Virus record (IMG/VR): IMGVR_UViG_2877285697_000003
Span: 1 to 36,641 of that record
Direction: 5' to 3' (one strand)
DNA: 36,641 nucleotides
Origin: a virus
Taxonomy: Duplodnaviria > Heunggongvirae > Uroviricota > Caudoviricetes
Both the position numbers and the translations under genes were made by a program. Of the stretch, positions 1,428 through 23,282 are shown piece after piece. Under the pieces are notes generated by a model that was not told where the DNA came from, did no database searches, and saw nothing but the letters and a program-made list of their open reading frames with translations. Positions within the stretch are counted from its first letter, which is position 1; every line of letters begins with the position of its first letter.

Positions 1428-2123
1428 TGAGGTGTACTGGCAATAGCGGACACTACCATTTGTTCTTTTTTTTAAGCAGCCATCTGATGATATTTTTCCC
1501 TGAAGGCTGCCGGGGAGATATTCCCCAGACGAGAGTGACGACGCTGACGATTGTAGAAAATCTCAATGTATTCCCGTATTACTGAGATGGCTTCATCCCG
1601 GTTATTAAAACGATAGTGGCTCAGGCTCTCATTTTTCAGCGTTCCCCAGAAGCTTTCCATCGGAGCGTTGTCGTAACAGTTACCTTTACGCGACATTGAT
1701 GTTTTCAGACCAAACTGCTCCTGTATGACCCGGTAATCGTATGCGCAGTACTGTGAACCTCGATCAGAGTGGTGGATTAGCCCGGCAGGTGGGCGCTGGC
1801 TCCTGAGCGCCATAAACAGGGCTTTACCTGTCAGCTCTTTTGTCATGCGCTCTCCCATGGCGTAGCCGACAATTTCGCACGTATAAACATCTTTGATGCC
1901 AGCGAGGTACAACCATCCCTCCTGTGTGGCAACATACGTCAGGTCCGCCACCCAGACCTGATTTGGTGCTGTAGGAGCGAACGTCTGGTTCAGCAGATTT
2001 GGCGCAACTGGCAGATTGTGGTTCGGGTTCGTAGTCGCTCTGAACTTGCGTTTCTGCTTACAGCGTAGCCTTAGCTCCTTACGAAGACGTGCCAGTCGGT
2101 CACGACCAACGATGATGCCATTC
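1428..2123 (-). mobile_element. IS600 (IS3 family) 3' fragment, about 696 bp, cut by IS911
   Basis: Terminal sequence TGAGGTGTACTGGCAATAGCGGACACTACC identical to the ends of the other IS600 copies at 6335 and 17550; orfB coding identical to 6378-7196; homology stops exactly at the IS911 left end. Confidence 0.85.
1472..2123 (-). pseudogene. IS600 orfB transposase, N-terminally truncated (ORF continues artifactually into IS911 to 2149)
   Basis: 225-aa ORF identical to the C-terminal 217 residues of the 272-aa orfB at 6378-7196; lacks orfA and the first 55 codons of orfB. Confidence 0.85.
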
Positions 2124-2195
2124 TGAAGTGGCACACTGAATTTGGCCACCTGAACAGAGGTGATATGCTCACCTCAGAACAACACAGGTGCTCCA

Positions 2196-3364
<1,169 letters not shown>

Positions 3365-3566
3365 CCACTTCACAGTCCTCAATCGCTGGTTCCGTGACGG
3401 AAGGGGGCGTCGTGTTCACGTTATACGCTGGGAGCCTGAAACACAGCGGGTTATTTATCTGCGTGATGGTTATCCATATGAATGTTTCAGCCCGTTGTGG
3501 TTGTTCAGGCGTGATTTTGTGGAGTGTGAAGCGCCGCCGGAATGACGGCACGGTATATACGAAAAA

Positions 3567-3926
3567 TTACGTCGCCTTGCCCAGCGTAAAATCAAAGTGG
3601 ATGTCGTCATACGGGAATGACGTTCCGCGCTCGCTTTTTTCCAGTAAACCGTTGCTGATGAGTGCGGTCACGTCAGTATGCACGCTTTTTACATCACGTC
3701 CAACCAGGGCTGCAATTTTTCGGATGGACATTTCTCCGGCACCAGTCATTGCCATCAGAATGTCCATGCGTTTTGGTGTCAGTACCTTATGCATCATTTG
3801 CCAGTCAGGAAATGAAATAACGTTTTCTCTGGTTGCTTTTGCTCCGGTAGCTGCTTCCTGGAACGCAGACAGCACATCAGCCGTGAAATTATCCATTGAC
3901 TCGATTCGGATTGTTACGGTTCTCAT
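3567..3926 (-). CDS. Winged-helix HTH DNA-binding protein (about 119 aa from internal ATG; ORF track gives 151 aa)
   Basis: Helix-turn-helix-like segment ..EMSIRKIAALVGRDVKSVHTDVTALISNGLLEKSERG..; ATG at 3926 is 1 nt after the stop of the upstream 95-aa ORF (TGAcATG on the minus strand), suggesting a two-gene operon. Confidence 0.55.
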   Translation of the reverse strand: MRTVTIRIESMDNFTADVLSAFQEAATGAKATRENVISFPDWQMMHKVLTPKRMDILMAMTGAGEMSIRKIAALVGRDVKSVHTDVTALISNGLLEKSERGTSFPYDDIHFDFTLGKAT

Positions 3927-3927
3927 G

Positions 3928-4215
3928 TCAGATACCTCTGCGGATGGATTTAACGTCAGCCAGAAAATCAGCGAGCAGTTGTTCAATGGTGACAAAGCTG
4001 GTGCTGACTTCCTGACTACCAATGTGTTTGTGATCGCCTTTACCCCGTTCGTTGTCGTAACGCATCACACACATGCCATCAACGACATAAGCCATGCTGT
4101 ATTTGTAGTTGTGCTGGCTACCCAATACAGCAGGCTCCACTTCCCATATGCGGATTCGTATGTATTCAGATTCACCGAGATGACGGATGAACTGTTTATA
4201 CAGTCTGGATGGCAT
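3928..4215 (-). CDS. Hypothetical 95-aa protein, upstream partner of the HTH gene
   Basis: Complete ORF, stop codon 1 nt before the downstream HTH gene start; no family recognised by eye. Confidence 0.5.
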   Translation of the reverse strand: MPSRLYKQFIRHLGESEYIRIRIWEVEPAVLGSQHNYKYSMAYVVDGMCVMRYDNERGKGDHKHIGSQEVSTSFVTIEQLLADFLADVKSIRRGI

Positions 4216-4383
4216 TTAAAGCTTCCTCTGGTTCTTGTTGTAAACAATAACAACAAGGCTTCGCGTTGTCCACAGCTACAACATTTTGATATTGATTCTG
4301 CAAGTCCGGGACGTTACACTGTTCCGGCACCTTATAAAACGGGTGCCGGGATTTGCACCCCGGAATTGATCAAGGCGATATAC

Positions 4384-4405
4384 GACGCGCCAGCGTCTTT
4401 TTTAT
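4384..4405 (+). terminator. Hairpin plus T-run (GACGCGCCAGCGTC TTTTTTAT) inside the divergent intergenic region
   Basis: GC-rich inverted repeat followed by a 6-T run on the + strand, about 165 bp upstream of the Rha-like gene start; could be an attenuator or small-RNA terminator. Confidence 0.35.
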
Positions 4406-4569
4406 CGTCCACGCTCACGCACGCCAGAATTATGGTGGGCTGGGCAGGGGAGCCGAAAGGCTCGCCGGTTTCCTTGATCGCCGGTAGTGCAAACCCTGTT
4501 CAGTCCGCCACCAGCGAGATTTGCACCTCCGGTGGTGGAAGTATTTCACCGATCAAGGAGGCTGCCATT

Positions 4570-5301
4570 ATGGCTACGATCCCAGTTTCCCCATTCCTCA
4601 AAATCGAAGTCGTCAACGGTAAGGCCGTTACTACATCTCTTTTCGGATATCTCAAACTGTTGCGCCTTGCTGGTGTTCCGGGTTATATTTCTCGCGTTGC
4701 TGTAAATCCAGCAACCGGGCTTCGCATCCCGAAACATCACACAGGGCTGACACGCCATAAGCGTGTTTTTTTGTCTACGTACGTCTATTCAATGGCGGCT
4801 CAGATGGGAGCTTCTTCGGAAGCGCCGGTTTTCCCTTGTGTGTCCGGTAATGCGAATCCTGTCTGGGCTGCCACCAATCATGGTTTCGCATCCGTGGGTG
4901 GTAGCTGTAAAGCACACACACAAGGGGCTGTCACCATGACTACCACCACTACTCACCCATTCCTCAAAATCGAAGTCGTCAACGGCAAGGCCGTTATTTT
5001 CTCTTTGCATGTGGCCTGCTACTTTAAGCGCATGCACCAGAACATCGTCGACAAAATCGAGTATCTGAACTGCTCGCGCGAATTTTTTACCCGCAATTTC
5101 ATACCGGGTACTTACCACATCTATGACGACTCTCTGCGTGGTTATTACATCACCCTTGATGGTCTGATGATGCTTCAGCTTGGGTTAAGTCTGCGCACAA
5201 TGCGGTACTACGAGAGTTGCATTGAAGCGTTCCATGAGGCTGAAACCAGCCTGAATCATACCGCTTTCCGTCGTAATCAATGGGAGGCGCGTCATGTGTA
5301 A
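4570..5301 (+). CDS. Rha-family-like phage regulatory protein (C-terminal half Rha-like; alternative start at 4936)
   Basis: ATG at 4570 preceded by AAGGAGG; residues from 4936 (MTTTTTHPFLKIEVVNGKAVIFSL..YYITLDGLMMLQLGLS..IEAFHEAE) resemble Rha/antirepressor-type N-terminal domains; the motif PFLKIEVVNGKAV is encoded twice by a 39-bp direct repeat. Confidence 0.45.
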   Translation: MATIPVSPFLKIEVVNGKAVTTSLFGYLKLLRLAGVPGYISRVAVNPATGLRIPKHHTGLTRHKRVFLSTYVYSMAAQMGASSEAPVFPCVSGNANPVWAATNHGFASVGGSCKAHTQGAVTMTTTTTHPFLKIEVVNGKAVIFSLHVACYFKRMHQNIVDKIEYLNCSREFFTRNFIPGTYHIYDDSLRGYYITLDGLMMLQLGLSLRTMRYYESCIEAFHEAETSLNHTAFRRNQWEARHV

Positions 5302-6334: not shown

Positions 6335-7365
6335 TGAGGTGTACTGGCAATAGCGGACACTACCATTTGTTCTTTTTTTAAGCAGCCATCTGATGGTATT
6401 TTTCCCTGAAGGCTGCCGGGGAGATATTCCCCAGACGAGAGTGACGACGCTGACGATTGTAGAAAATCTCAATGTATTCCCGTATTACTGAGATGGCTTC
6501 ATCCCGGTTATTAAAACGATAGTGGCTCAGGCTCTCATTTTTCAGCGTTCCCCAGAAGCTTTCCATCGGAGCGTTGTCGTAACAGTTACCTTTACGCGAC
6601 ATTGATGTTTTCAGACCAAACTGCTCCTGTATGACCCGGTAATCGTATGCGCAGTACTGTGAACCTCGATCAGAGTGGTGGATTAGCCCGGCAGGTGGGC
6701 GCTGGCTCCTGAGCGCCATAAACAGGGCTTTACCTGTCAGCTCTTTTGTCATGCGCTCTCCCATGGCGTAGCCGACAATTTCGCACGTATAAACATCTTT
6801 GATGCCAGCGAGGTACAACCATCCCTCCTGTGTGGCAACATACGTCAGGTCCGCCACCCAGACCTGATTTGGTGCTGTAGGAGCGAACGTCTGGTTCAGC
6901 AGATTTGGCGCAACTGGCAGATTGTGGTTCGGGTTCGTAGTCGCTCTGAACTTGCGTTTCTGCTTACAGCGTAGCCTTAGCTCCTTACGAAGACGTGCCA
7001 GTCGGTCACGACCAACGATGATGCCATTCTCTGCCAGCTCCGTCTGGAGCCGCCGGGTTCCATATGTTTCGCGAGTGCGGATATGTGCCACCTTAATCTC
7101 CAGTTTTAGCCGCTCATCACTTTGTTTTCTGTCTGAGGGTTCATGCTGTACCCAGTTGTAATAACCGCTCCTGGATACACCAAATACCTGACACATCGCT
7201 TCAATGGGAAATTGTTGTCGCCATTGTTCGATTAACGCGTATTTTTCAGCGACTCCTGTGCAAAATACGCTGTTGCTTTTTTTAATATATCTCGCTCAAG
7301 GCGAGCTTCATTTAACGCCTTACGCAGTTGCAGAATTTCAGATTCCAGTTCAGCCACCGTGCGGG
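6335..7365 (-). mobile_element. IS600 copy, 5'-truncated (about 1031 of 1264 bp; lacks IRL and first ~57 codons of orfA)
   Basis: Right terminus TGAGGTGTACTGGCAATAGCGG at 6335; identity to the complete copy (16287-17550) ends near 7365 inside orfA, where molR-like sequence begins. Confidence 0.85.
6378..7196 (-). CDS. IS600 orfB transposase (272 aa)
   Basis: Nearly identical to orfB of the complete IS600 at 16689-17507 (two substitutions); IS3-family catalytic core. Confidence 0.9.
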   Translation of the reverse strand: MCQVFGVSRSGYYNWVQHEPSDRKQSDERLKLEIKVAHIRTRETYGTRRLQTELAENGIIVGRDRLARLRKELRLRCKQKRKFRATTNPNHNLPVAPNLLNQTFAPTAPNQVWVADLTYVATQEGWLYLAGIKDVYTCEIVGYAMGERMTKELTGKALFMALRSQRPPAGLIHHSDRGSQYCAYDYRVIQEQFGLKTSMSRKGNCYDNAPMESFWGTLKNESLSHYRFNNRDEAISVIREYIEIFYNRQRRHSRLGNISPAAFREKYHQMAA

Positions 7366-8893
7366 AACGTGATCTGGCTCGCCAGTGGATTTTACAATGG
7401 CCGGAACATACGGCTAGTGCACTTATCCCTCTTGTCTTTACCAAACCCAGCGATAATAGCGAAGCCGCATTACTTGCCCTGCGTTTACTGTACGAACAGG
7501 GACATGGCGAATTGCTACAAACCGTGGCAAACCGCTGGCAGCGTACAGATGTATGGTCTGCCCTGGAGCAGTTGCTTAAACAGGGTCCAATGGACATTTA
7601 CCCGGCACGCATTCCAAAAGCCCCTGATTTCTGGCATCCGGCAATGTGGTCCAGGCCTTGACTTATCACTAATAATCAGCCTGTTACCGGTGACGCTCTG
7701 GAAATTATCGGCGAAATGCTGCGCTTTACCCAGGGGGGACGTTTTTATAGCGGGCTGGAACAACTGAAAACGTTCTGCCAGCCACAAACGCTGGCAGCTT
7801 TTGCCTGGGATCTCTTCACTGCGTGGCAACAAGCTGGTGCCCCCGCAAAAGACAACTGGGCATTTCTGGCGTTAAGTCTCTTTGGTGACGAAAGCACGGC
7901 ACGGGATCTGACGACACAGATCCTCGCCTGGCCACAAGAAGGCAAATCTGCCCGTGCTGTCAGCGGCCTGAACATCCTTACCCTGATGAATAATGATATG
8001 GCGCTGATACAGCTGCATCATATATCGCAACGGGCTAAATCCCGCCCCTTACGTGATAACGCGGCGGAATTTCTTCAGGTGGTCGCAGAAAATCGCGGGC
8101 TAAGCCAGGAAGAGCTAGCGGACAGATTAGTCCCAACCCTGGGCCTTGATGATCCGCAGGCGTTGAGTTTTGATTTTGGTCCCCGGCAGTTTACCGTTCG
8201 CTTCGATGAAAACCTCAACCCGGTTATCTTTGATCAGCAAAACGTTCGCCAGAAAAGCGTTCCCCGGTTGCGCGCCGATGACGATCAACTGAAAGCGCCC
8301 GAGGCACTGGCCCGACTAAAAGGGCTAAAAAAAGATGCTACTCAGGTGAGCAAAAACCTGCTCCCGCGTCTTGAAGCTGCCCTAGGTACCACCCGACGCT
8401 GGTCGCTGGCAGATTTTCATTCTCTGTTTGTTAATCATCCCTTTACCCGTCTGGTTACCCAGCGATTAATATGGGGGGGTTATCCGGCAAATGAACCGCG
8501 TTGTTTACTCAAAGCCTTTCGTGTGGCCGCAGAGGGGGAGTTCTGCAATGCGCAAGATGAGCCAATTGACCTGCCTGCGGACGCTCTGATTGGCATTGCC
8601 TACCCGTTAGAAATGACAGTAGAAATGCGCAGTGAATTTGCACAGCTTTTTGCCGATTACGAAATTATGCCGCCTTTTCGCCAGTTGTCGCGCCGCACGG
8701 TGCTGCTCACACCTGACGAGTCAACCAGTAACAGCCTGACTCGCTGGGAAGGTAAATCCGCTACCGTTGGGCAGCTTATGGGAATGCGATACAAAGGCTG
8801 GGAGTCAGGTTATGAGGACGCATTTGTCTATGACCTGGGTGAGTACCGGCTGGTCCTTAAGTTTTCACCCGGTTTTAACCACTACAATGTTGA
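7366..8893 (+). pseudogene. molR: molR/yehI-family (DUF4132-type) gene fragment: 5' part deleted at IS600, in-frame stop at 7659-7661, 3' end interrupted by IS1
   Basis: Two same-frame ORFs (7359-7661 and 7716-8915) separated by one stop codon; translation recalled as the large WGR/DUF4132 protein encoded next to metG in E. coli; the final codons MLPTY-stop come from the IS1 terminus. Confidence 0.6.
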
Positions 8894-9659
8894 GGTAATG
8901 CTGCCAACTTACTGATTTAGTGTATGATGGTGATTTTAAGGTGCTTGCGTGGCTTCCATTTCCATCAGATGTCCTTCCTGCTCCGCTACTGAAGGCGTGG
9001 TGCGTAACGGCAAAAGCACTGCCGGACATCAGCGCTATCTCTGCTCTCATTGCCAAAACATGGCAACTACAGTTCACTTACACCGCCTCTCAGCCCGGTA
9101 CGCACCAGAAAATCATTGATATGGCCATGAATGGCGTCGGATGTCGCGCCAGTGCACGCATTATGGGCGTTGGCCTCAACACGGTTTTACGTCACTTAAA
9201 AAACTCAGGCCGCAGTCGGTAACCTCGCGCATACAACCGGGCAGTGATGTGATTGTCTGCGCTGAAATGGACGAACAGTGGGGCTACGTCGGTGCTAAAT
9301 CACGTCAGCGCTGGCTGTTTTACGCGTATGACAGGATACGGAGGACGGTTGTGGCGCACGTCTTCGGTGAACGCACTCTGGCCACACTGGAGCGTCTTCT
9401 GAGCCTGCTGTCGGCCTTTGAGGTCGTGGTATGGATGACGGATGGCTGGCCGCTGTATGAATCACGCCTGAAGGGAAAGCTGCACGTTATCAGCAAGCGT
9501 TACACTCAGCGCATTGAGCGACATAATCTGAATCTGAGACAACATCTGGCAAGGCTGGGACGGAAGTCACTGTCGTTCTCAAAATCGGTGGAGCTGCATG
9601 ACAAGGTCATCGGGCATTATCTGAACATAAAACACTATCAGTAAGTTGGAGTCATTACC
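8894..9659 (+). mobile_element. IS1, full length but with a 2-bp deletion that frameshifts insA
   Basis: Ends GGTAATGCTGCCAACTTACTGAT.. and ..ATCAGTAAGTTGGAGTCATTACC; insA region TCTCATTGCC--AAAACATGG differs from canonical TCTCACTGCCGTAAAACATGG, so the InsA frame is broken; insB is intact. Confidence 0.9.
9141..9644 (+). CDS. insB: IS1 InsB
   Basis: 167-aa translation recognised as IS1 InsB (..[54 protein letters not shown]..). Confidence 0.9.
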
Positions 9660-9818
9660 TGAATAATCAACAGGTGCTTCTGGGTTACAGCTGGCTTGAC
9701 GATAAACTTGAGCTCTACCTCCTTAGCATCGGTCCACATGAAAATTTTTATACCGATCAGAAAAAACACCGAAAAGCTGATTTAAAACTCATCGGTTAGT
9801 CCTGACGTCATGCATACC

Positions 9819-9846
9819 AGCCCACGTAAACGCGTGGGCTTTTTCA
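9819..9846 (+). terminator. Rho-independent terminator-like hairpin (AGCCCACG taaa CGTGGGCT TTTT)
   Basis: Perfect 8-bp stem, 4-nt loop, followed by a T-run, about 150 bp upstream of the KilA-N gene. Confidence 0.5.
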
Positions 9847-9997
9847 TATCTGAATTTCACCGCGCACCGCAGCGCATGATAACCACCGAACCTGCCCCTT
9901 TGGAATGAGCCTTTGAGGATACCAGTTAGTGCTGGCGAGCCTCGGTGGGCTGGTTTCCTGTGCGGCAAAGGTTCATTTCAAAGAACAGGTATACGAC

Positions 9998-10495
9998 ATG
10001 AAATCATTAACCCTCTTCAATCAGCCAATCCGTATCGGTGAAGATGGCATGATCTGCCTCACTGATATGTGGAAAGCCAGTGGTAAAAGTGAATCTGAAT
10101 CTCCGTACCACTACCTGCGAAACAAGCAGACCAAAGAGTTCTTAGCCGAGCTGGAGAAAAACCACGAATCTGTGGTTTTTACTGAGCGCGGTGTACACGG
10201 TGAAACATATGGCGGGAAGTTTGTTGCTTATGATTATGCAGCATGGCTAAACCCCGGATTTAAATATGCAGCCTATAAAGTCCTGGATGACTACTTCACC
10301 GGAGAACTTCAGCATCGCAACAGCTTAAGTGCGCAGCTCAATATGAAGTGTCATGAGTTTGATCAGAAAAAAGATATGGCGAGCTTCTGTGGACAAGGGC
10401 TGGCGGCATGGCGCTATACGAAGCCAGTGTTGGTCGCTGAGATTAACTCCCTGGCTAACCAGCTGCAGATAACGATCCCCGGGCTTCCGGGATGA
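9998..10495 (+). CDS. KilA-N domain protein (phage antirepressor-like DNA-binding protein)
   Basis: Start chosen at ATG 9998 with upstream AGG; translation (..ICLTDMWKASGK.. GGKFVAYDYAAWLNPGFKYAAYKVLDDYF..) matches the KilA-N domain pattern. Confidence 0.7.
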   Translation: MKSLTLFNQPIRIGEDGMICLTDMWKASGKSESESPYHYLRNKQTKEFLAELEKNHESVVFTERGVHGETYGGKFVAYDYAAWLNPGFKYAAYKVLDDYFTGELQHRNSLSAQLNMKCHEFDQKKDMASFCGQGLAAWRYTKPVLVAEINSLANQLQITIPGLPG

Positions 10496-10749
10496 GTGAT
10501 CGTGTCATTGAATGCGCCTCCAGAGCGGGGCGCGACTTCTCAGAGTTCATGAAAGGCGAGAAGGGCATGATGGAAGCATTGGCCTCGGTGGATGAGTTTG
10601 GCGAGCAGCTGCGCCTCAACGGCTGTGTCAATCATCACTTTGTTAGCTACATGATGCGGAACTCGATCATGCAGGCATTCATGGACATGGCAAAAGCCGA
10701 GAGGAAAGAAGAGCGCCGGCGTAAGCGAGCGGAAGCAAAAGCGAAGTAG
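10492..10749 (+). CDS. Hypothetical 85-aa protein with basic C-terminal tail, translationally coupled to the KilA-N gene
   Basis: ATGA start/stop overlap with the upstream gene; C-terminus KAERKEERRRKRAEAKAK. Confidence 0.45.
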   Translation: MSDRVIECASRAGRDFSEFMKGEKGMMEALASVDEFGEQLRLNGCVNHHFVSYMMRNSIMQAFMDMAKAERKEERRRKRAEAKAK

Positions 10750-11164
10750 CCATTACAAAGCCCATCTACTGGTGGGCTTGATAATGGCTTATACCCTACA
10801 CGGGATAACTTAACTGATATCCCTTTTAACGGATAAAGGTATTCAAGCCTGACACATCATGCGCTGTATCGTCGCTGTATTCCCGCATTAACCATGACCG
10901 TAGCCCGACGGGGAACTCCTTCTGCGCGAGTGTGCGGGAATAATCAAAAACGATGCACACCGGGTTTTTACCGCGTTTATGGTTCGCGGGTTTGTCCCTC
11001 ATGCTCGCCAGTCCTGTGCGGGGGTGGAAGAAACAGGACACTTACACTGATTCTTGTGGGTACGATGCTATTCCTTTCTGGATTATCCCGATGTCATTCA
11101 TGCAGGGCGCTGTATCAGACGTTCGTCATGGCTGTCAGGCTGACGGGTCCTCCCGGTGGGGTGG

Positions 11165-11192
11165 CCTGCCACGGGGCGGGAGCGGCGCGGAA
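11165..11192. other. Candidate cos site (cosN-like GC-rich element) upstream of terS
   Basis: ACGGGGCGGGAGCGGCGCGG resembles the phage lambda cosN neighbourhood as recalled (ACGGGGCGGCGACCTCGCGGG), lies about 170-190 bp upstream of the terS start as in lambda, and is followed by a TTCGTCAT motif and a palindrome ACTGTAAT-N8-ATTACAGT (11234-11257). Confidence 0.4.
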
Positions 11193-11360
11193 AAAGGCTA
11201 GTTTTTGAAATTTCATTCGTCATCACCACTACTGTAATGTGTTGATATTACAGTGGTTTTATTTTTGTGGTGTCGATTTTGATTGTTTTTTTGTTCATCA
11301 CTAACACCGTTTGCCTAAAGTTGTTCGCAAGATGCATGTTTAAAACATTCTGGAGCGGGT

Positions 11361-11854
11361 ATGGATCGAGAGTTAAAAAATCTGACGCTGAATATCAGTC
11401 AACTGGCGGCACTGTCAGGTGTACATCGCCAGACTGCTGCGGCAAGGCTGCAAAATCTACCCGTTGCAGGGGGCATGAAAGCAACCTCAAGCTTTATCGG
11501 GTGGTTGATATTGTGTCGGCATTTCTGGCATTACCACCGCCGGTTGCAGAAGGCGAAATGGACGCGCATGAGCGCAAAGCCTGGTATCAGTCTGAACGTG
11601 AGCGTCTTAAGTTCGAACAGGAAACGGCACAACTCATTCCGGCCAGTGATGTCAGACGGGAGTTTGCCATCTGGGCAAAAGCGGTCGTGCAGGTGCTGGA
11701 GACATTACCGGATATTCTTGAACGTGACTGCGGTCTGCAGCCTGCCGCTGTGAGCCGTATTCAGTCCATTATTGATGATCTGCGCGATCAGATAGCCCTG
11801 CGGGTGACTGAAGCAGGTGCGGATGATGAGGAGGAATTACAGCAGGAGGAGTAA
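11361..11854 (+). pseudogene. Terminase small subunit (Nu1-like), frameshifted within a G-run near 11469-11477
   Basis: N-terminal HTH part (MDRELKNLTLNISQLAALSGVHRQTAAARLQNLPVAGG) is in one frame (ORF 11361-11753) and the remainder (HESNLKLYRVVDIV.. to stop at 11854) in another (ORF 11267-11854); junction at GCAGGGGGCATG. Confidence 0.7.
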
Positions 11855-13956
11855 TGCTGAATCAGGAAACCGCAAAGGCAGCACGAACCGATTCAGGTTA
11901 TATCCTTCGCGCACCAAGACGAATGCGGGTTGCTGATGCCGTTGCTCAGTATATGCGGGTGCCCATGGGGGCAGGGAACTCAGTCCCGTGGGATCCGCTG
12001 GTGGCACCGTATGTTATTGAGCCGATGAACTGCCTGGCCTCGCGTGAATACGACGCAGTGATATTTGTTGGCCCGGCACGAACCGGCAAGACTATCGGCC
12101 TGATTGACGGCTGGGTGATTTACAACGTGATTTGCGATCCTGCTGATATGCTGATCATTCAGATGACGGAGGAAAAAGCCCGCGAACACTCCAAAAAACG
12201 ACTCGCCAGAACGTTTCGCGTCAGCCCGGAAGTGGTCAGTCGCCTGAGTCCGAACAAAAATGACAACAACGTTTATGACAGAACATTCCTTGCTGGCAAC
12301 TACCTGAAAATCGGCTGGCCGTCAGTCAATATCATGTCCTCATCAGATTATAAATGCGTCGCGCTGACGGATTATGACCGTTTTCCGGAAGATATTGATG
12401 GTGAGGGGGATGCTTTCTCTCTTGCCTCAAAACGTACCACAACATTTATGTCCAGTGGTATGACGCTGGTGGAGAGTTCCCCCGGCAGGGATGTGAAGGA
12501 TGTGAAATGGCGACGGACTTCACCGCATGAGGCTCCACCAACCACGGGGATACTGTCGCTCTATAACCGTGGCGATCGCCGTCGCTGGTACTGGCCCTGT
12601 CCACACTGTGGTGAGTATTTTCAGCCCTGCGGCGATGTGGTTGCTGGTTTCCGTGATATTGCCGATCCCGTGCTGGCAAGTGAGGCGGCTTATATTCAGT
12701 GTCCTTCCTGTTCAGGACGGATTATGCCTGAACAAAAACGTGAGCTGAACGGACGTGGGGTCTGGTTGCGGGATGGTGAATCCATCAATGCGGATGGCAG
12801 TCGTTATGGTGATCCCAGGCGTTCACGTATTGCGTCATTCTGGATGGAGGGTCCGGCAGCTGCTTACCAGACACTCTCGCAACTCGTTTACAAACTGCTT
12901 ACTGCAGAACAGGAATACGAGACAACCGGAAGTGAAGAAACACTCAGGGCGGTTATCAACACCGACTGGGGATTACCTTATCTTCCCCGCGCCAGCATGG
13001 AGCAACGAAAAAGTGAACTGCTTGAGCAGCGGGCAGAGCCTGTTCCTCCCCGCTGCGTGCCGGATGGTGTTAATTTCCTGGCGGCGACAGTGGATGTGCA
13101 GGCGGGACGTCATCGCCGTTTTGTGGTTCAGGTAACGGGTTATGGTTGCCGTGGCGAACGCTGGATTATTGATCGTTACAACATCACGCAGTCATTGCGT
13201 TGTGACAACAACGGAGAAAGCCTGCGAATTGATCCTGCTGGTTATCCTGAGGACTGGGATGTCCTGCTGACGGATGTTTTTCATAAAAGCTGGCCGTTGG
13301 CCTCCGATCCTTCTCAACAAATGCGACTGATGGCAATGGCGGTGGACTCCGGCGGTGAAGACGGGGTCACTGATAATGCCTATAAATTCTGGCGTCGTTG
13401 CCGTCGTGATGGCCTTGGTAAACGTATTTACCTGTTTAAGGGCGACAGCATCCGACGCGCAAAACTGATCACCCGTACATTCCCTGATAACACCGGACGA
13501 ACGGGCCGACGGGCGCAGGCCGCAGGTGATGTGCCGCTCTGGCTTCTTCAGACGGATGCCCTGAAAGACCGGGTGAATAACGCGTTATGGCGTGACTCGC
13601 CAGGTCCCGGCTATGTGCATTTCCCTGACTGGCTGGGGAGCTGGTTTTACGACGAACTGACGTATGAAGAGCGGAGCAGTGACGGGAAATGGAGTAAGCC
13701 GGGTCGAGGTGCCAACGAAGCTTTTGACCTGATGGTGTATGCCGAGGCTCTGGTCATTCTGCATGGTTACGAGAAAATTCAGTGGCCGGATGCGCCGGAA
13801 TGGGCATGCAGGGAAACCTGGCTGGAGCGTGTCAGGGACGATGCCGGACTGTCAGCCTCGCCGGAGCCGATATCCGTGTCCGTTAAAAAAAAGAAACGAA
13901 AAAAAGTGGTGCCTGATGAAGAAAACCCATGGGTGACTTCCGGAGGATGGTTGTGA
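11854..13956 (+). CDS. Terminase large subunit (lambda gpA family), 700 aa
   Basis: ATG overlaps the terS stop (TAATG); translation has the gpA-family ATPase region (..VIFVGPARTGKT..) and length typical of lambda-type TerL. Confidence 0.9.
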   Translation: MLNQETAKAARTDSGYILRAPRRMRVADAVAQYMRVPMGAGNSVPWDPLVAPYVIEPMNCLASREYDAVIFVGPARTGKTIGLIDGWVIYNVICDPADMLIIQMTEEKAREHSKKRLARTFRVSPEVVSRLSPNKNDNNVYDRTFLAGNYLKIGWPSVNIMSSSDYKCVALTDYDRFPEDIDGEGDAFSLASKRTTTFMSSGMTLVESSPGRDVKDVKWRRTSPHEAPPTTGILSLYNRGDRRRWYWPCPHCGEYFQPCGDVVAGFRDIADPVLASEAAYIQCPSCSGRIMPEQKRELNGRGVWLRDGESINADGSRYGDPRRSRIASFWMEGPAAAYQTLSQLVYKLLTAEQEYETTGSEETLRAVINTDWGLPYLPRASMEQRKSELLEQRAEPVPPRCVPDGVNFLAATVDVQAGRHRRFVVQVTGYGCRGERWIIDRYNITQSLRCDNNGESLRIDPAGYPEDWDVLLTDVFHKSWPLASDPSQQMRLMAMAVDSGGEDGVTDNAYKFWRRCRRDGLGKRIYLFKGDSIRRAKLITRTFPDNTGRTGRRAQAAGDVPLWLLQTDALKDRVNNALWRDSPGPGYVHFPDWLGSWFYDELTYEERSSDGKWSKPGRGANEAFDLMVYAEALVILHGYEKIQWPDAPEWACRETWLERVRDDAGLSASPEPISVSVKKKKRKKVVPDEENPWVTSGGWL

Positions 13957-14165
13957 ACCAGAATGATATTGAAGCCATGATCCATCGTTATATCAATGCG
14001 GAAATGGCAGTGCTGGACGGAAAGTCCATTACTTTTAATGGTCAGCAGATGACCATGGAAAACTTATCCGAGATCCGACAGGGGCGGCAGGAGTGGGAAC
14101 GTCGCCTTGCGACTCTGGCTGCGCGGCGACGGGGGAAGCCGGGCTATAAACTGGCGAGGTTCTGA
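13953..14165 (+). CDS. Head-tail joining protein, gpW-like
   Basis: Small ORF between terL and portal, position as in lambda; GTG at 13953 preceded by GGAGG; stop overlaps the portal ATG (TGATG). Confidence 0.6.
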   Translation: MNQNDIEAMIHRYINAEMAVLDGKSITFNGQQMTMENLSEIRQGRQEWERRLATLAARRRGKPGYKLARF

Positions 14166-15670
14166 TGGCAATTCTTGATGATGTTATTGGTGTTTTTTCA
14201 CCTGGCTGGAAAGCTGCGAGATTGCGCTCAAGGGCATTAATTCGTGCCTATGAGGCAGTGAAGCCTACTCGTACACATAAAGCCCGGCGGGAAAATCGTT
14301 CTGCCGACCAGCTCAGTAAGTACGGTGCAGTTTCCCTGCGGGAGCAGGCTCGTTTTCTGGACATCAATCATGATCTGGTAATCGGTGTTTTCGACAAACT
14401 TGAGGAACGGGTGATTGGTGCAAAAGGGATCGTTGTCGAACCCCAGCCATTACTGAAGAACGGTGATATAGCCACAGAGCTGGCAATGATTCTCCGTCGC
14501 TTGTGGGTGGAATGGTCTGTCAGTCCGGATGTGACCGGGCAGTATACGCGCCCCATGCTCGAGCGTCTGCTGCTGCGTACCTGGTTACGTGATGGTGAAG
14601 TGTTTGCCCAGCTGGTTCGTGGTGCCGGCGGCGGGCTGGTGCGGACTGCTGGCGTGCCTTTCTGGATCGAGGCAATGGAGCCGGATTTTGTGCCCATGCT
14701 CAGTGATGAATCTGTGGGGTTGAATCAGGGTGTTTTTCTGGATGACTGGGGCAGACCGAAAAAATACCTGGTTTATAAAAATCATCCGACTACCGGGCGG
14801 CTGAGTGATACCAAAGAGATCGTTGCCGAAAATATGGTGCATCTGAAATTTACCCGTCGTCTGCATCAGACGCGTGGTACATCCATGTTGTCAGGTGTGC
14901 TGATGCGGATCAGTGCGCTTAAGGAATATGAAGATGCTGAGCTGACAGCGGCGCGTGTTGCTGCGGCTCTGGGGCTGTATATCCGTAAAGGAGATGGGCA
15001 GGATTATGAAGACGCCACGATAAATAAAGATAATGACCGGGAACTGCATATCACCCCTGGCATTATTTATGACGATTTGCGCAAGGGGGAAGATATTGGC
15101 ATGGTCAAATCTGATCGGCCCAATCCTAACCTTGAAACTTTTCGTAACGGGCAGCTGCGTGCGGTGGCCGCAGGCAGTCGTATGAGTTTTTCCAGTGCGG
15201 CGCGCAATTACAACGGTACCTACAGCGCTCAGCGACAGGAGCTGGTCGAGTCCACTGACGGCTATCTGATCCTGCAGGACTGCTTTATTGGCGCTGTAAC
15301 CCGTCCCGTGTACCGGACGTGGCTGAACATGGTGGTAGCAGCAGGTCTGCTGAAAATCCCGTCGGATGTGGATATGAAAACGTTGTGTAACGCAACATAT
15401 TCCGGTCCGGTCATGCCGTGGATTGATCCGGTTAAGGAGGCTGAGGCCTGGAAAATCCAGATTCGCGGTGGAGCGGCGACAGAATCAGACTGGGTGCGAG
15501 CAGGTGGGCGTAATCCGGATGATGTCAAACGTCGGCGCAAGGCTGAAATTGATGAAAACCGCAAGCTGGGTCTGATATTTGATACCGATCCGGCCAGTAA
15601 TAAAGGAGGCAGCAGTGTCGCAACGAAACGACTGGAGCCGCAGCACACCGACGGCCAGTCCGAAGAATAA
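14165..15670 (+). CDS. Portal protein (lambda gpB family), 501 aa
   Basis: Position after terL and gpW, size and sequence consistent with lambda-family portal proteins. Confidence 0.85.
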   Translation: MAILDDVIGVFSPGWKAARLRSRALIRAYEAVKPTRTHKARRENRSADQLSKYGAVSLREQARFLDINHDLVIGVFDKLEERVIGAKGIVVEPQPLLKNGDIATELAMILRRLWVEWSVSPDVTGQYTRPMLERLLLRTWLRDGEVFAQLVRGAGGGLVRTAGVPFWIEAMEPDFVPMLSDESVGLNQGVFLDDWGRPKKYLVYKNHPTTGRLSDTKEIVAENMVHLKFTRRLHQTRGTSMLSGVLMRISALKEYEDAELTAARVAAALGLYIRKGDGQDYEDATINKDNDRELHITPGIIYDDLRKGEDIGMVKSDRPNPNLETFRNGQLRAVAAGSRMSFSSAARNYNGTYSAQRQELVESTDGYLILQDCFIGAVTRPVYRTWLNMVVAAGLLKIPSDVDMKTLCNATYSGPVMPWIDPVKEAEAWKIQIRGGAATESDWVRAGGRNPDDVKRRRKAEIDENRKLGLIFDTDPASNKGGSSVATKRLEPQHTDGQSEE

Positions 15671-15683
15671 TTCCTGGTTCAGG

Positions 15684-16289
15684 ATGCAGGCAGGTCACCA
15701 GAGTGACGCGGATATTTATATTTATGACGAGATTGGTTTCTGGGGTGTTACGGCGAAGCAGTTTATCAGTGATCTGAATGCACTGGGCGATATCACCCAC
15801 ATTAATCTCCATATCAATTCACCGGGTGGCGATGTCTTTGAAGGCATCGCCATTTTTAATGCACTGAAAACACATGGTGCGTCCATTACCGTTTATGTCG
15901 ACGGTGTGGCGGCATCAATGGCGTCGGTCATTGCGATGGTGGGAAACCCGGTCATTATGCCGGAAAACACCTTCATGATGATTCATAAACCATTTGGCTT
16001 TACGGGCGGTGATGCGGAGGACATGCGCACCTATGCCGACCTGCTCGATAAAGTTGAGGCGGTTCTGTTACCCGCTTATGCACAGAAAACCGGGAAAACC
16101 ATCGATGAAGTTGCTGCCATGCTGGCGGATGAGACCTGGATGTCCGGTGCCGAATGTCTGGCACATGGATTTGCTGATCAGGTGACGCCAGCCGTTAAGG
16201 CAATGGCATGTATTCAGTCAAAACGTACAGAGGAATTTAAAAAGATGCCGGAATCCATTCGAAACATGATTACTCCGCCACGCAACTGA
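15684..16289 (+). CDS. ClpP/S14-family prohead protease; stop codon provided by the IS600 terminus
   Basis: Translation (..HINSPGGDVFEGIAIFNALK.. SMASVIAMVG.. MIHKP..) has ClpP-like Ser/His motifs; start set at ATG 15684 just after the portal stop (ORF track start 15579 overlaps portal); TGA at 16287-16289 is the first 3 nt of the IS600 IRL. Confidence 0.8.
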   Translation: MQAGHQSDADIYIYDEIGFWGVTAKQFISDLNALGDITHINLHINSPGGDVFEGIAIFNALKTHGASITVYVDGVAASMASVIAMVGNPVIMPENTFMMIHKPFGFTGGDAEDMRTYADLLDKVEAVLLPAYAQKTGKTIDEVAAMLADETWMSGAECLAHGFADQVTPAVKAMACIQSKRTEEFKKMPESIRNMITPPRN

Positions 16290-16350
16290 GGTAGCCTGAG
16301 TTTAACGGACACTCCTTCCTGAAATAGAATGGCATCAGAAGGAGCTAATA

Positions 16351-16653
16351 ATGAGCAGAAAAACCCAACGTTACTCTAAAGAGTTCAAAGCCGAAGCTGT
16401 CAGAACGGTTCTTGAAAATCAACTTTCGATCAGTGAAGGCGCTTCCCGATTATCCCTTCCTGAAGGCACTTTAGGACAATGGGTTACCGCCGCCAGAAAA
16501 GGGCTCGGTACTCCTGGCTCCCGCACGGTGGCTGAACTGGAATCTGAAATTCTGCAACTGCGTAAGGCGTTAAATGAAGCTCGCCTTGAGCGAGATATAT
16601 TAAAAAAAGCAACAGCGTATTTTGCACAGGAGTCGCTGAAAAATACGCGTTAA
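16351..16653 (+). CDS. IS600 OrfA
   Basis: 100-aa ORF MSRKTQRYSKEFKAEAVRTV.. with HTH and leucine-zipper-like C-terminus, as in IS3-family OrfA proteins. Confidence 0.9.
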   Translation: MSRKTQRYSKEFKAEAVRTVLENQLSISEGASRLSLPEGTLGQWVTAARKGLGTPGSRTVAELESEILQLRKALNEARLERDILKKATAYFAQESLKNTR

Positions 16654-16688
16654 TCGAACAATGGCGACAACAATTTCCCATTGAAGCG

Positions 16689-17507
16689 ATGTGTCAGGTA
16701 TTTGGTGTATCCAGGAGCGGTTATTACAACTGGGTACAGCATGAACCCTCAGACAGAAAACAAAGTGATGAGCGGCTAAAACTGGAGATTAAGGTGGCAC
16801 ATATCCGCACTCGCGAAACATATGGAACCCGGCGGCTCCAGACGGAGCTGGCAGAGAATGGCATCATCGTTGGTCGTGACCGACTGGCACGTCTTCGTAA
16901 GGAGCTAAGGCTACGCTGTAAGCAGAAACGCAAGTTCAGAGCGACTACGAACCCGAACCACAATCTGCCAGTTGCGCCAAATCTGCTGAACCAGACGTTC
17001 GCTCCTACAGCACCAAATCAGGTCTGGGTGGCGGACCTGACGTATGTTGCCACACAGGAGGGATGGTTGTACCTCGCTGGCATCAAAGATGTTTATACGT
17101 GCGAAATTGTCGGCTACGCCATGGGAGAGCGCATGACAAAAGAGCTGACAGGTAAAGCCCTGTTTATGGCGCTCAGGAGCCAGCGCCCACCTGCCGGGCT
17201 AATCCACCACTCTGATCGAGGTTCACAGTACTGCGCATACGATTACCGGGTCATACAGGAGCAGTCTGGTCTGAAAACATCAATGTCGCGTAAAGGTAAC
17301 TGTTACGGCAACGCTCCGATGGAAAGCTTCTGGGGAACGCTGAAAAATGAGAGCCTGAGCCACTATCGTTTTAATAACCGGGATGAAGCCATCTCAGTAA
17401 TACGGGAATACATTGAGATTTTCTACAATCGTCAGCGTCGTCACTCTCGTCTGGGGAATATCTCCCCGGCAGCCTTCAGGGAAAAATATCATCAGATGGC
17501 TGCTTAA
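16689..17507 (+). CDS. IS600 OrfB transposase
   Basis: 272-aa ORF; differs from the copy at 6378-7196 by two substitutions (F->S and D->G in ..VIQEQSGLKTSMSRKGNCYGNAPME..). Confidence 0.9.
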   Translation: MCQVFGVSRSGYYNWVQHEPSDRKQSDERLKLEIKVAHIRTRETYGTRRLQTELAENGIIVGRDRLARLRKELRLRCKQKRKFRATTNPNHNLPVAPNLLNQTFAPTAPNQVWVADLTYVATQEGWLYLAGIKDVYTCEIVGYAMGERMTKELTGKALFMALRSQRPPAGLIHHSDRGSQYCAYDYRVIQEQSGLKTSMSRKGNCYGNAPMESFWGTLKNESLSHYRFNNRDEAISVIREYIEIFYNRQRRHSRLGNISPAAFREKYHQMAA

Positions 17508-17550
17508 AAAAAGAACAAATGGTAGTGTCCGCTATTGCCAGTACACCTCA

Positions 17551-17765
17551 GAATTATCCTTCGCTTGCTCCACATACCCCTTCTTCACCTTCTCCGCAAT
17601 CAGCTTAAGCTCCGCTTTTGCCGCTGCCGCAGCATCTGAAAAACTTTTTATCTGGCTTTGCCCTTTGGTGCCAACTTTTCCCCAACTGATATGCAACTCG
17701 TTTCCCTGTTGCTCAACTGCCCAGAATTTATGTGATTTTTCGTCCTGATAGATAAAGTGTCTCAT
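17551..17765 (-). pseudogene. molR: molR-family gene, N-terminal WGR-domain fragment, truncated by IS600
   Basis: Translation MRHFIYQDEKSHKFWAVEQQGNELHISWGKVGTKGQSQIKSF.. has the WGR motif; the last residues (EVYWQ-stop) are read from the IS600 terminus; lies directly downstream of metG as molR does in E. coli. Confidence 0.6.
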
Positions 17766-21440: not shown

Positions 21441-21748
21441 CAATGGGTAATGACTCCAACTTACTGATAGTGTTTTATGTTCAGATAATGCCCGATGACC
21501 TTGTCATGCAGCTCCACCGATTTTGAGAACGACAGTGACTTCCGTCCCAGCCTTGCCAGATGTTGTCTCAGATTCAGATTATGTCGCTCAATGCGCTGAG
21601 TGTAACGCTTGCTGATAACGTGCAGCTTTCCCTTCAGGCGTGATTCATACAGCGGCCAGCCATCCGTCATCCATACCACGACCTCAAAGGCCGACAGCAG
21701 GCTCAGAAGACGCTCCAGTGTGGCCAGAGTGCGTTCACCGAAGACGTG
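21441..21748 (-). mobile_element. IS1 fragment (right-end ~308 bp with the 3' part of insB), cut by IS911
   Basis: Begins with IS1 terminus GGTAATGACTCCAACTTACTGATAGTG; ORF 21461-21763 encodes the C-terminal 95 residues of InsB; homology ends exactly where IS911 starts. Confidence 0.85.
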
Positions 21749-21756
21749 TGAAGTGG

Positions 21757-22925
<1,169 letters not shown>

Positions 22926-23282
22926 TGGAGCACCTGTGTTGTTCTGAGGTGAGCATATCACCTCTGTTCAGGTGGCCAAATTCAGTGTGCCACTTCACCT
23001 CCGCAAATAACGGATGGCGTAGTTTTACACTGAGAAATGAAAGGGATTTGAAAAGAAAAAAACGCAAAAGCGGGCGAAACGATATATACAGTAAGGAAAG
23101 CACTCTATCCAACAAACCACCCACAGTTAATCGGAATAAAAGCAGAGTGCTTATGAATGATCGCACGCCCGAAGGTTAGTATTTCTGCACAGCAATTTTG
23201 CAAAAAAAGGCGATCATTCATAACTTAAACGTCTTTCAGTCACTCCGGGATTTCCCATCATCGCAGACTGAAAGACTCTGAC

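What the first reader, a model, noticed from the sequence alone, without database searches (positions are those of the whole stretch)
11140..11260. Candidate cos site retained upstream of the terminase genes
A GC-rich element (ACGGGGCGGGAGCGGCGCGG) resembling the lambda cosN neighbourhood as I recall it lies about 170-190 bp upstream of terS, followed by a TTCGTCAT motif and an 8-bp-arm palindrome (ACTGTAAT gtgttgat ATTACAGT, 11234-11257) where cosB-type or IHF sites would be expected. If functional, the remnant could still be packaged or mobilised in trans by a helper phage despite lacking structural genes.
Basis: partly seen in the sequence, partly recalled or inferred. Interest (0 to 1): 0.45.

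Follow-up and report, generated by a model that had tools for sequence, protein, structure and literature searches.

The report
Lambda-type cos site in prophage remnant
The flagged sequence is a genuine, sequence-intact lambda-type DNA-packaging (cos) site of a common mEp460-like phage, stranded in a 6.6-kb phage fragment cut down by insertion sequences; it is an ordinary, already understood kind of feature.

Summary
Window 11145-11304 is a complete lambda-type cos. It has cosQ (GGGTCCT, 11145-11151) and cosN (11169-11190). The predicted nick lies between 11173 and 11174, giving a 12-nt end GGGCGGGAGCGG. terS starts at +188, against +191 in lambda. The deposited ends of phages cdtI and Tritos fall exactly at the predicted nick. 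The isolated phage mEp460 is identical to the window from -43 to +65. Across 115 viral loci the +37..+62 zone co-varies with the TerS helix-turn-helix type while cosQ and cosN stay constant.

The host fragment (~9660-16289) lies between IS1 and an IS3-family element. It keeps terL, adaptor and portal but has lost capsid, tail, integrase and replication genes. terS carries a one-base G-run frameshift that is absent from four other assemblies of the same remnant.

Cutting in trans by a cognate helper terminase is plausible. Mobilisation of the remnant as a unit is not supported. Trans-packaging of defective lambdoid prophages is already documented. Interest is low.

The parts
11145..11151 (+). 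cosQ (GGGTCCT), the packaging-termination subsite
   Evidence: Matches lambda cosQ 7/7. It lies 22 bp before the predicted nick, against 23 bp in lambda. It is invariant in 30 unique family members. PMC4669245 states that the 7-bp cosQ is highly conserved in lambda-like phages.
11169..11190 (+). cosN, the 22-bp nicking site CCACGGGGCGGGAGCGGCGCGG, with partial two-fold symmetry
   Evidence: Aligns without gaps to lambda TTACGGGGCGGCGACCTCGCGG. 6 of 11 half-site positions are symmetric, against 5 of 11 in lambda. The exact core occurs in 8 viral contigs and the G12T variant in more than 30.
11174..11185 (+). Predicted 12-nt 5' cohesive end GGGCGGGAGCGG (top-strand nick between 11173 and 11174, bottom-strand nick between 11185 and 11186)
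   Evidence: The cdtI record starts, and the Tritos record starts and ends, exactly here. It differs from lambda GGGCGGCGACCT only at positions 7, 8, 9, 11 and 12. It is identical in phage mEp460, JQ182728. The physical overhang was not measured.
11216..11229 (+). R3-like candidate TerS binding site TTCGTCATCACCAC (+43..+56)
   Evidence: Nearly invariant in the family. It occupies the position of R3 in lambda and N15 (bp 48-59, PMC4669245). A CATCAYCAY motif at this position accompanies every HRQTxxxRL-type TerS across otherwise divergent cosB groups.
11231..11254 (.).
   Evidence: The arms accumulate uncompensated substitutions. The palindrome is absent from sister cos groups that keep the IHF core and A/T tract.
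11235..11247 (-). IHF core consensus TATCAACACATTA (WATCAANNNNTTR), the I1-like site
   Evidence: Perfect consensus match. The count alone is not significant (2 found, 1.65 expected). The same core sits at the same offset (+63/+64) in cdtI and Tritos despite unrelated flanks. The ATTGAT part is invariant in the family.
11257..11266 (+). A/T tract TTTTATTTTT, which lies 5' of the IHF core on the minus strand
   Evidence: Conserved within the family and in sister cos groups. A core-plus-A-tract layout like the lambda attP H' site is recalled from my own knowledge.
11267..11276 (-). R2-like inverted repeat TCGACACCAC
   Evidence: Matches the R3 core 8/10 in inverted orientation. It pairs with R3 in the fold. 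GTGTCGA is nearly invariant.
11295..11304 (+). R1-like direct repeat TCATCACTAA
   Evidence: Matches the R3 core 8/10 in direct orientation. Two extra matches within 170 bp give P of about 0.01-0.035. This is the weakest of the three sites; mEp460 has TCGCCAC here.
11361..11854 (+). terS (DUF1441 / phrog_141, a distant Nu1 homologue), frameshifted by G6->G5 at 11469-11473
   Evidence: 37 related loci have G6. CP119450.1 differs from the window by this single base over 14.1 kb.
11854..13956 (+). terL, gpA family, intact at 700 aa
   Evidence: Pfam GpA_ATPase 9e-72 and GpA_nuclease 7e-84. Same length as in mEp460_4F5.
13953..14165 (+). Head-tail adaptor (gpW-like)
   Evidence: phrog_118 6.6e-35; gene call.
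14165..15670 (+). Portal protein, lambda family
   Evidence: Pfam Phage_portal_2 1.4e-79.
15615..16289 (+). Truncated ClpP-protease/major-head fusion gene (about 224 of 652 aa remain)
   Evidence: Pfam CLP_protease. The full-length homologue is 652 aa in mEp460_4F5. The IS inverted repeat begins at about 16290.
16290..17550 (+). IS3-family insertion sequence forming the right boundary of the phage fragment
9141..9659 (+). IS1 (transposase ORF through the terminal inverted repeat) forming the left boundary of the phage fragment
   Evidence: Pfam DDE_Tnp_IS1 1.3e-74. A repeat copy is listed. The terminal repeat ends at 9659.

Best explanation
This is the cohesive-end (cos) site of an mEp460-type lambdoid prophage, with all three subsites in the lambda order: cosQ, cosN and cosB.

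Inferred mechanism, by homology with lambda: TerS dimers bind the R3-like and inverted R2-like repeats. An IHF-induced bend at the core and A/T tract that coincide with the palindrome brings those repeats together. This positions gpA-type TerL to nick between 11173 and 11174 on the top strand and between 11185 and 11186 on the bottom strand, producing a 12-nt 5' end GGGCGGGAGCGG. Packaging then runs rightward, towards terS and terL. cosQ serves termination when a translocating terminase arrives from the left.

In this genome the site is a fossil. It sits in a 6.6-kb phage fragment bounded by IS1 and an IS3-family element. The fragment has no late promoter region, integrase, replication, capsid or tail genes, and in this assembly terS is frameshifted. 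The site is probably still cleavable if a cognate terminase (mEp460, Ayreon or phi458 type) is supplied, but the remnant cannot be packaged as a discrete transmissible unit.

Shown here: sequence anatomy, homology, family conservation, coincidence with deposited phage ends, and TerS/cosB co-variation. Inferred: nick positions, TerS and IHF binding, and cleavability.
For: - Anatomy: cosQ, spacing, cosN and the flanking CGCGG align with lambda. The architecture appears in 0 of 100 shuffles.
- Phage ends: the cdtI and Tritos records break exactly at the predicted nick. Tritos is a plaque-forming phage with virions seen by EM (PMC9928086).
- Identity to a real phage: isolated phage mEp460 is identical from -43 to +65, including G at end position 12.
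- Conservation: the cosQ to +33 block is essentially invariant in 30 unique relatives.
- Specificity module: the +37..+62 zone tracks the TerS HTH type across 115 loci.
- Terminase genes: gpA-family terL lies immediately downstream. TerS is a distant Nu1 homologue by reciprocal PHROG cross-hits. The terS ATG is at +188, against +191 in lambda.
- Fit to the published definition: the Feiss description of lambda-like cos (12-nt ends, variation in bp 7-12, conserved cosQ, R3-I1-R2-R1 cosB) matches (PMC4669245).
- Fragment boundaries.
Against: - No experiment was done here. Nick positions, the overhang, and TerS and IHF binding are all inferred.
- I could not verify how the cdtI and Tritos record ends were chosen; the primary cdtI paper is not held.
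- The mEp460_4F5 record breaks 4 nt to the left and is 3 bp shorter in cosN.
- The IHF consensus count in the window is at chance level.
- The R1-like site is weak and differs in mEp460.
- Family members are close relatives, so conservation within the family has limited power.
- The window has one extra T in the T-run between the R2-like and R1-like repeats.
Confidence: 0.85

Rival explanations
1. One reading: the remnant is a functional, helper-dependent mobilisable element whose retained cos lets it be packaged and transferred by a superinfecting lambdoid phage.
For: - The cos sequence is intact and identical to that of a viable phage.
- terS is intact in four other assemblies of the same remnant, and terL and portal are intact.
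- There is precedent: defective O157 prophage Sp4, whose Nu1 is disrupted by an IS, is packaged. The authors attributed this most likely to the terminase of Sp14, whose putative cos is nearly identical (PMC2669165). PICIs also use helper terminase at their own cos (PMC9026076).
Against: - The fragment is 6.6 kb and bounded by IS1 and an IS3-family element. It has no integrase, att or replication genes of its own. Sp4, by contrast, is excised and amplified.
- There is only one cos in the window and none in the 25 kb downstream. Termination requires a downstream cosQ and cosN (PMC4669245).
- A generic 'lambdoid helper' would not do. cosB and TerS specificity differ between lambda, 21, N15, cdtI and this type.
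Confidence: 0.07
2. The palindrome and T-run (11228-11266) is primarily an intrinsic transcription terminator or RNA hairpin, not an IHF or cosB element.
For: The terminator scan flags it: 13 pairs, a 4-nt loop and the tail TTTATTTTTG. The RNA fold is -25.4 kcal/mol with z = -4.97, and 0 of 200 shuffles fold as well.
Against: - Only 3 G-C pairs in the stem, and the scan's chance expectation is 1.2 per region.
- Most of the fold energy comes from nested inverted repeats that are also the R3/R2 arrangement.
- Arm substitutions in relatives are mostly uncompensated, with one possible exception (pair 11232-11253: A-T in 2 of 30 sequences where the rest have C-G), and several pairs are often broken.
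- Sister cos groups lack the palindrome but keep the TTGAT core and A/T tract at the same offset.
- No Rfam match.
- The two roles are not mutually exclusive.
Confidence: 0.12
3. Chance resemblance: a GC-rich stretch and a short palindrome with no packaging role.
For: The IHF consensus count and the terminator-like count are each at chance level for the window.
Against: 0 of 100 shuffles contain the cosQ-cosN architecture, and 0 of 2000 reach the lambda alignment score. The site is conserved in dozens of phage contigs at a fixed distance upstream of terS and terL. Phage record ends fall on it.
Confidence: 0.01

Closest known systems
Bacteriophage lambda cos (cosQ-cosN-cosB with R3, I1, R2, R1)
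   Same: The subsite order is the same. cosQ matches 7/7. ACG^GGGCGG is identical at the left nick, and CGCGG follows the 12-nt end in both. The layout is an inverted R3/R2 pair flanking an IHF-type site, plus a third direct repeat. terS starts at +188, against +191 in lambda. A gpA-family TerL lies downstream.
   Different: The cohesive end differs at positions 7, 8, 9, 11 and 12. The cosQ-nick spacer is 22 bp, not 23. The cosB sequence is unrelated (CATCACCAC-type repeats versus CGTTTCCGTT-type). The IHF core lies about 16 bp closer to cosN. TerS is DUF1441/phrog_141 and is only remotely related to Nu1; BLASTP finds nothing, and only profile-level cross-hits link them.
cos of phages mEp460, Ayreon, phi458 and vB_EcoS-569R4 (isolated lambdoid coliphages)
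   Same: Same cosQ, cosN, R3-like site, IHF core and TerS. mEp460 is identical from -43 to +65.
   Different: Those phages are complete. The window copy sits in a 6.6-kb IS-bounded fragment with a frameshifted terS, has two loop substitutions, and has one extra T between the R2-like and R1-like repeats. In the mEp460 and Ayreon records the cos is not annotated; the Ayreon authors only predicted its approximate location (PMC5764929).
cos of phages cdtI and Tritos
   Same: Identical from cosQ through +33, except T instead of G at end position 12. The IHF core is at the same offset. TerS is in the same PHROG at 42% identity. The deposited genome ends fall at the predicted nick.
   Different: The R3 zone differs (CCATGGCGGCGGCA) and so does the TerS recognition helix (HRDTVKKRL versus HRQTAAARL). 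This implies a different packaging specificity, as with lambda versus 21.
Defective O157 Sakai prophage Sp4 packaged via Sp14 terminase (Asadulghani et al. 2009, PMC2669165)
   Same: A defective lambdoid prophage with a disrupted small-terminase gene that keeps a cos matching that of an active relative. This is the documented precedent for trans-packaging.
   Different: Sp4 is a near full-length prophage that is excised and amplified. The fragment here has no excision or replication functions and is far below packageable size.

Membership tests
lambda-like cos sites (definition in Feiss et al. 2015, PMC4669245) | [quoted passage not shown] | tested here: met
   GGGCGGGAGCGG versus GGGCGGCGACCT gives 7/12 identical, and all five differences fall at positions 7, 8, 9, 11 and 12. 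This is a sequence-level test only.
lambda-like cos sites (definition in Feiss et al. 2015, PMC4669245) | Physical 5'-protruding 12-nt single-stranded ends on virion DNA | not testable with these tools
   Only indirect support: the cdtI and Tritos records begin and end at the predicted nick. How those ends were determined could not be verified.
lambda-like cos sites (definition in Feiss et al. 2015, PMC4669245) | Conserved 7-bp cosQ upstream of cosN | tested here: met
   GGGTCCT at 11145-11151, 22 bp before the nick. It is invariant in the family.
lambda-like cos sites (definition in Feiss et al. 2015, PMC4669245) | cosB between cosN and terS with TerS-binding R sites (complex type: R3, inverted R2, R1, with an IHF site between R3 and R2) | tested here: inconclusive
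   Candidate R3(+), IHF core, R2(-) and R1(+) sites occur in the lambda order. The R3 zone co-varies with the TerS HTH type across 115 loci. Binding was not tested, R1 is weak, and the IHF consensus count is at chance level.
lambda-like cos sites (definition in Feiss et al. 2015, PMC4669245) | Adjacent terminase genes: Nu1-type TerS with an N-terminal HTH, and gpA-type TerL | tested here: met
   terL has GpA_ATPase and GpA_nuclease domains. TerS is DUF1441/phrog_141 with reciprocal weak profile hits to the Nu1 family phrog_57. BLASTP to Nu1 is negative and no solved structure was found.
Helper-dependent mobilisable elements (PICI-like or packageable defective prophage) | Own excision and replication functions (integrase/att, replication module) allowing formation of a packageable substrate | tested here: not met
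   The fragment, about 9660-16289, contains only a KilA-N gene, small ORFs, cos, terS, terL, adaptor, portal and a truncated head gene, and it is bounded by IS1 and an IS3-family IS. An integrase at 75-1361 is separated from it by several IS copies; any link between the two was not tested.
Helper-dependent mobilisable elements (PICI-like or packageable defective prophage) | Two cos sites, or a circular or concatemeric form, giving a unit of packageable length | tested here: not met
   There is a single cos in 36.6 kb and none in the 25 kb downstream of the nick. The rest of the chromosome was not examined.
Rho-independent terminator | G+C-rich stem-loop followed by a U-run, with the stem maintained in relatives | tested here: not met
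   A hairpin and T-run are present, but only 3 of 13 pairs are G-C. Arm substitutions are mostly uncompensated (one possible exception, pair 11232-11253) and the pairs are frequently broken in relatives. The hairpin is absent in sister cos groups.

The most novel reading that the evidence does not exclude
The chromosomal cos, together with the intact terL and portal (and the terS that is intact in most strains), could be retained because it does something when a cognate mEp460-type phage infects or is induced. One possibility is an entry point for in-situ, one-cos packaging of the adjacent chromosome (the metG side), a cos-driven analogue of lateral transduction or of lambda 'doc' particles. 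The other is a decoy or suicide target that diverts or is cut by the invader's terminase. Nothing here tests either idea. The fact that two complete genomes differ by only one base over 14.1 kb fits recent common descent as well as it fits selection.
Probability: 0.04. Interest if true: 0.5.

Novelty: already known. Interest (0 to 1): 0.15.

Why it matters
It matters little beyond annotation. The result pins the cos site and predicted cohesive end (GGGCGGGAGCGG/T) of a very common coliphage packaging module. At least 80% of the 1-kb cos-terS query is present in 1182 of 5426 complete E. coli genomes. Several phage records leave this site unannotated or cover it with a 'hypothetical protein'. 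The comparison also suggests a TerS recognition motif (CATCAYCAY) for the DUF1441/HRQT-type small terminases, which could be tested easily. For the host genome it marks an IS-eroded prophage fossil, not a mobile element.

Tried and rejected
- The start of the mEp460_4F5 record (LR595868) first looked like an empirical end. It is 4 nt left of the nick and lacks 3 bp that 60+ relatives have, so I treated it as an assembly or trimming artefact, not as evidence that the window has a 3-bp insertion in cosN.
- I considered whether G at end position 12 makes this cosN defective. I rejected this because mEp460 has the same base.
- TTCGTCAT as a lambda-homologous cosB element: rejected on position, +43 here versus +67 in lambda. 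The upstream copy at 11122 is not conserved in relatives.
- terS frameshift as evidence of decay: weakened. Four other assemblies have G6, and CP119450.1 differs only at that base over 14.1 kb.
- A literature search for the end sequence returned only irrelevant hits. The source accession returned nothing. The primary cdtI paper is not held.
- BLASTP of TerS against Nu1, the PDB sequence search and Rfam all gave nothing.
- The genome-contig scan found the exact cosN type in only 4 species-representative genomes: E. coli, E. ruysiae and two MAGs.
- The organism name of CP026827.1 could not be read with these tools. Shigella is suspected from the IS1 and IS3-family load, the 4.56-Mb size and the record's absence from the E. 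coli set. That is inference only.

Full report
**1. Observation**

- ACGGGGCGGGAGCGGCGCGG lies at 11171-11190, which is 171-190 bp upstream of the terS ATG at 11361.
- TTCGTCAT lies at 11216-11223. There is also a copy at 11122.
With G-T pairs allowed the stem extends to 13 pairs, 11228-11257.

**2. The site is a lambda-type cos**

I placed the window next to the two ends of lambda (NC_001416). Four features line up:
- The 7-bp cosQ GGGTCCT (11145-11151).
- A spacer of 22 bp, against 23 bp in lambda.
- ACG|GGGCGG at the left nick.
- CGCGG immediately after a 12-nt segment.

The predicted cohesive end is GGGCGGGAGCGG (11174-11185). It differs from lambda's GGGCGGCGACCT only at positions 7, 8, 9, 11 and 12. 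Feiss et al. describe this same pattern for lambda-like phages: 12-nt 5' ends, differences concentrated in bp 7-12, and a highly conserved cosQ. They note that gifsy-1 differs at positions 8, 9 and 11 (PMC4669245).

The resemblance is not chance. The cosQ-N18-26-ACGGGGCGG architecture occurs once in the window and in 0 of 100 shuffles. The 60-nt alignment to lambda gives 37 identities in 61 columns, and none of 2000 shuffles reaches its score.

**3. Evidence for the cut position**
- The phage cdtI record (AB285204) starts at the base matching window 11174.
- The phage Tritos record (OV696610) starts there and ends at the base matching 11173.
- Both read ...CCACG | GGGCGGGAGCGT CGCGG.... They match the window from cosQ to +33 except for T instead of G at end position 12.
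- Tritos forms plaques and its virions have been imaged (PMC9928086).
- I could not verify how those record ends were chosen; the primary cdtI paper is not held.
- The mEp460_4F5 record breaks 4 nt to the left and is 3 bp shorter inside cosN. It is the outlier. A viral-contig scan found the window's exact core in 8 contigs and the T12 variant in more than 30, all with the 12-nt spacing.
- GenBank mEp460 (JQ182728), an isolated phage, is identical to the window from -43 to +65, including G12. So the window's cosQ, cosN and proximal cosB are those of a real phage.

**4. cosB**

About 33 viral contigs share the window's cosB type. In 30 unique sequences the block from cosQ to +33 is essentially invariant. 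TTCGTCATCACCAC (+43..+56) is nearly invariant. The variable columns cluster in the palindrome loop and at the outer ends of its arms.

The 10-mer TCATCACCAC recurs with no more than 2 mismatches in two more places:
- Inverted at 11267-11276.
- Direct at 11295-11304.

This gives the same + / - / + order as lambda R3, R2 and R1. Two extra matches within 170 bp have P of about 0.01-0.035.

Between the first two repeats lies a perfect IHF core, TATCAACACATTA, on the minus strand at 11235-11247. A TTTTATTTTT tract sits on its 5' side. The consensus count in the whole window is at chance level, 2 found against 1.65 expected. What counts is position: the same core sits at +63/+64 in cdtI and Tritos, whose flanking sequences are unrelated.

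The strongest comparative result comes from 115 viral loci. The left half of cosN is constant, while the +37..+62 zone tracks the TerS N-terminal helix type:

| TerS helix type | +37..+62 zone |
|---|---|
| lambda type (IRTIQNWQ) | GCGTTTCCGTT |
| 21 type (DPRTIERWQ) | CATGTCGGTA |
| N15/Monarch type (SATAFDKW) | GGTGGTGGTGG |
| cdtI type (HRDTVKKRL) | GGCGGCGGCA |
| HRQT(A/V)(A/V)xRL types, including this one | CATCAYCAY |

This is the modular specificity pattern known for lambda versus 21 (PMC4669245).

The shared TTCGTCAT is not positionally homologous with lambda. It lies at +43 here and at +67 in lambda, outside lambda R3.

**5. The palindrome**

Folded as RNA, the region is unusually stable (-25.4 kcal/mol, z = -4.97). 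The terminator scan flags it. Several points argue against a terminator as its main role:
- The fold is made of nested inverted repeats: the R3/R2 pair outside and the palindrome inside.
- Only 3 of the 13 stem pairs are G-C.
- Substitutions in relatives are mostly uncompensated, with one possible exception (pair 11232-11253), and several pairs are often broken.
- Sister cos groups lack the palindrome but keep the TTGAT core and the A/T tract.
- Rfam finds nothing.

I read the palindrome as largely coincident with an IHF site. A secondary terminator role is not excluded.

**6. Proteins**
- terL (11854-13956) is an intact gpA-family terminase.
- The small subunit is DUF1441/phrog_141. BLASTP to lambda Nu1 finds nothing. 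Nu1 (phrog_57) and this TerS (phrog_141) hit each other's profiles at about 1e-8 over nearly full length, so they are distant homologues.
- TerS is 42% identical to cdtI TerS. The divergence is in the N-terminal HTH region, which matches the cosB divergence.
- No solved structure was found.

**7. State of the locus**
- The window is identical to GenBank CP026827.1.
- terS has lost one G from a G6 run at 11469-11473, shifting the frame after codon 38 of 164.
- Thirty-seven related loci have G6. Four other assemblies of the same remnant have G6 and identical cos from -60 to +200.
- CP119450.1 matches the window over 14.1 kb with zero mismatches and one gap, which is that G. The frameshift is therefore very recent or a homopolymer sequencing error.
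- The phage fragment runs from about 9660, just after the IS1 terminal repeat, to about 16289, where an IS3-family inverted repeat begins.
- It contains a KilA-N gene, small ORFs, cos, terS, terL, adaptor, portal and the first ~224 aa of a head gene. That head gene is a 652-aa protease-head fusion in mEp460_4F5, followed there by the head-completion and tail genes.
- metG follows the IS. The window holds at least six IS copies or fragments.

**8. Can it be used in trans?**

A cognate terminase could plausibly bind and nick here, because the site is identical to mEp460's. Defective prophages packaged by a relative's terminase are already documented. O157 prophage Sp4, with an IS-disrupted Nu1, is packaged. 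The authors attribute this most likely to the terminase of Sp14, whose putative cos is nearly identical (PMC2669165). PICIs also exploit helper terminase (PMC9026076).

Sp4, however, is excised and amplified. This fragment has no excision or replication functions and is far below packageable length. It also has no second cos in the 25 kb downstream, and lambda-type termination needs a downstream cosQ and cosN. At most one would expect in-situ, one-cos packaging of the chromosome to the right, as in the lambda 'doc' particles I recall from the older literature (my own knowledge, not checked here). The helper would also have to be of the mEp460 specificity type, not any lambdoid phage.

**9. Novelty**

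This is an ordinary feature of a known kind.
- The module is widespread: 1182 of 5426 complete E. coli genomes carry at least 80% of the 1-kb cos-terS query.
- The exact cosN type was found only in Escherichia representatives plus two MAGs that are probably mis-binned.
- In some phage records the site is unannotated or lies under a 'hypothetical protein'. The Ayreon authors only predicted its approximate location (PMC5764929).

The practical value is annotation, plus a testable TerS motif.

Noticed in passing
window 11469-11473: terS carries a G5 run where 37 related loci have G6. Four other assemblies of the same remnant have G6, including CP119450.1, which otherwise has zero mismatches over 14.1 kb. 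One unrelated viral contig (L063) also has G5. This is either a very recent slip or a homopolymer sequencing error.
   Followed up: yes
window 1467-3374, 6335-7366, 9357-9659, 16290-17550, 21446-22997: The window has an extreme IS load. A 1251-bp element is present twice in inverted orientation (2124-3374 and 21747-22997). There are three IS3-family copies or fragments that are 100% identical, plus IS1 fragments. Together with the 4.56-Mb chromosome this suggests a Shigella-type genome. The organism name was not verified.
   Followed up: partly
window 7716-8915 (+) and about 17532-17765 (-): A DUF4132 ORF to the left of the phage fragment and a WGR-domain fragment to its right, next to metG, look like two pieces of one disrupted host gene on opposite strands. 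This implies IS-mediated rearrangement around the remnant.
   Followed up: no
window 75-1361 (-) and 3358-5301 (+): A tyrosine integrase with an Arm-DNA-binding domain and an ORF with Ash and Rha domains lie upstream, separated from the cos fragment by several IS copies. They may belong to the same original prophage or to another element.
   Followed up: no
window 10894-11208 (+): A 104-aa ORF runs across cosQ and cosN, and its equivalent is annotated 'hypothetical protein' in several phage records. It would be severed in virion DNA. Only its first 26 aa hit an Rz-like spanin profile (E 9e-8). It is probably not a real gene.
   Followed up: partly
L001/L002 (LR595868.1 ends): The mEp460_4F5 record starts 4 nt left of the predicted nick and lacks 3 bp of cosN (GAGCGCGG instead of GAGCGKCGCGG) that all other relatives have. 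This is probably an end-assembly artefact in that record.
   Followed up: yes
L139 (JAGZPX010000007.1) and L141 (JAEWTL010000010.1): Contigs binned as Veillonella parvula and Bacillota MAGs carry this Escherichia-phage cosN exactly. They are most likely mis-binned coliphage or prophage contigs.
   Followed up: no
window 11284-11290: The window has T7 where most relatives, including mEp460, have T6. This lengthens the spacing between the R2-like and R1-like repeats by 1 bp. The effect is unknown.
   Followed up: no
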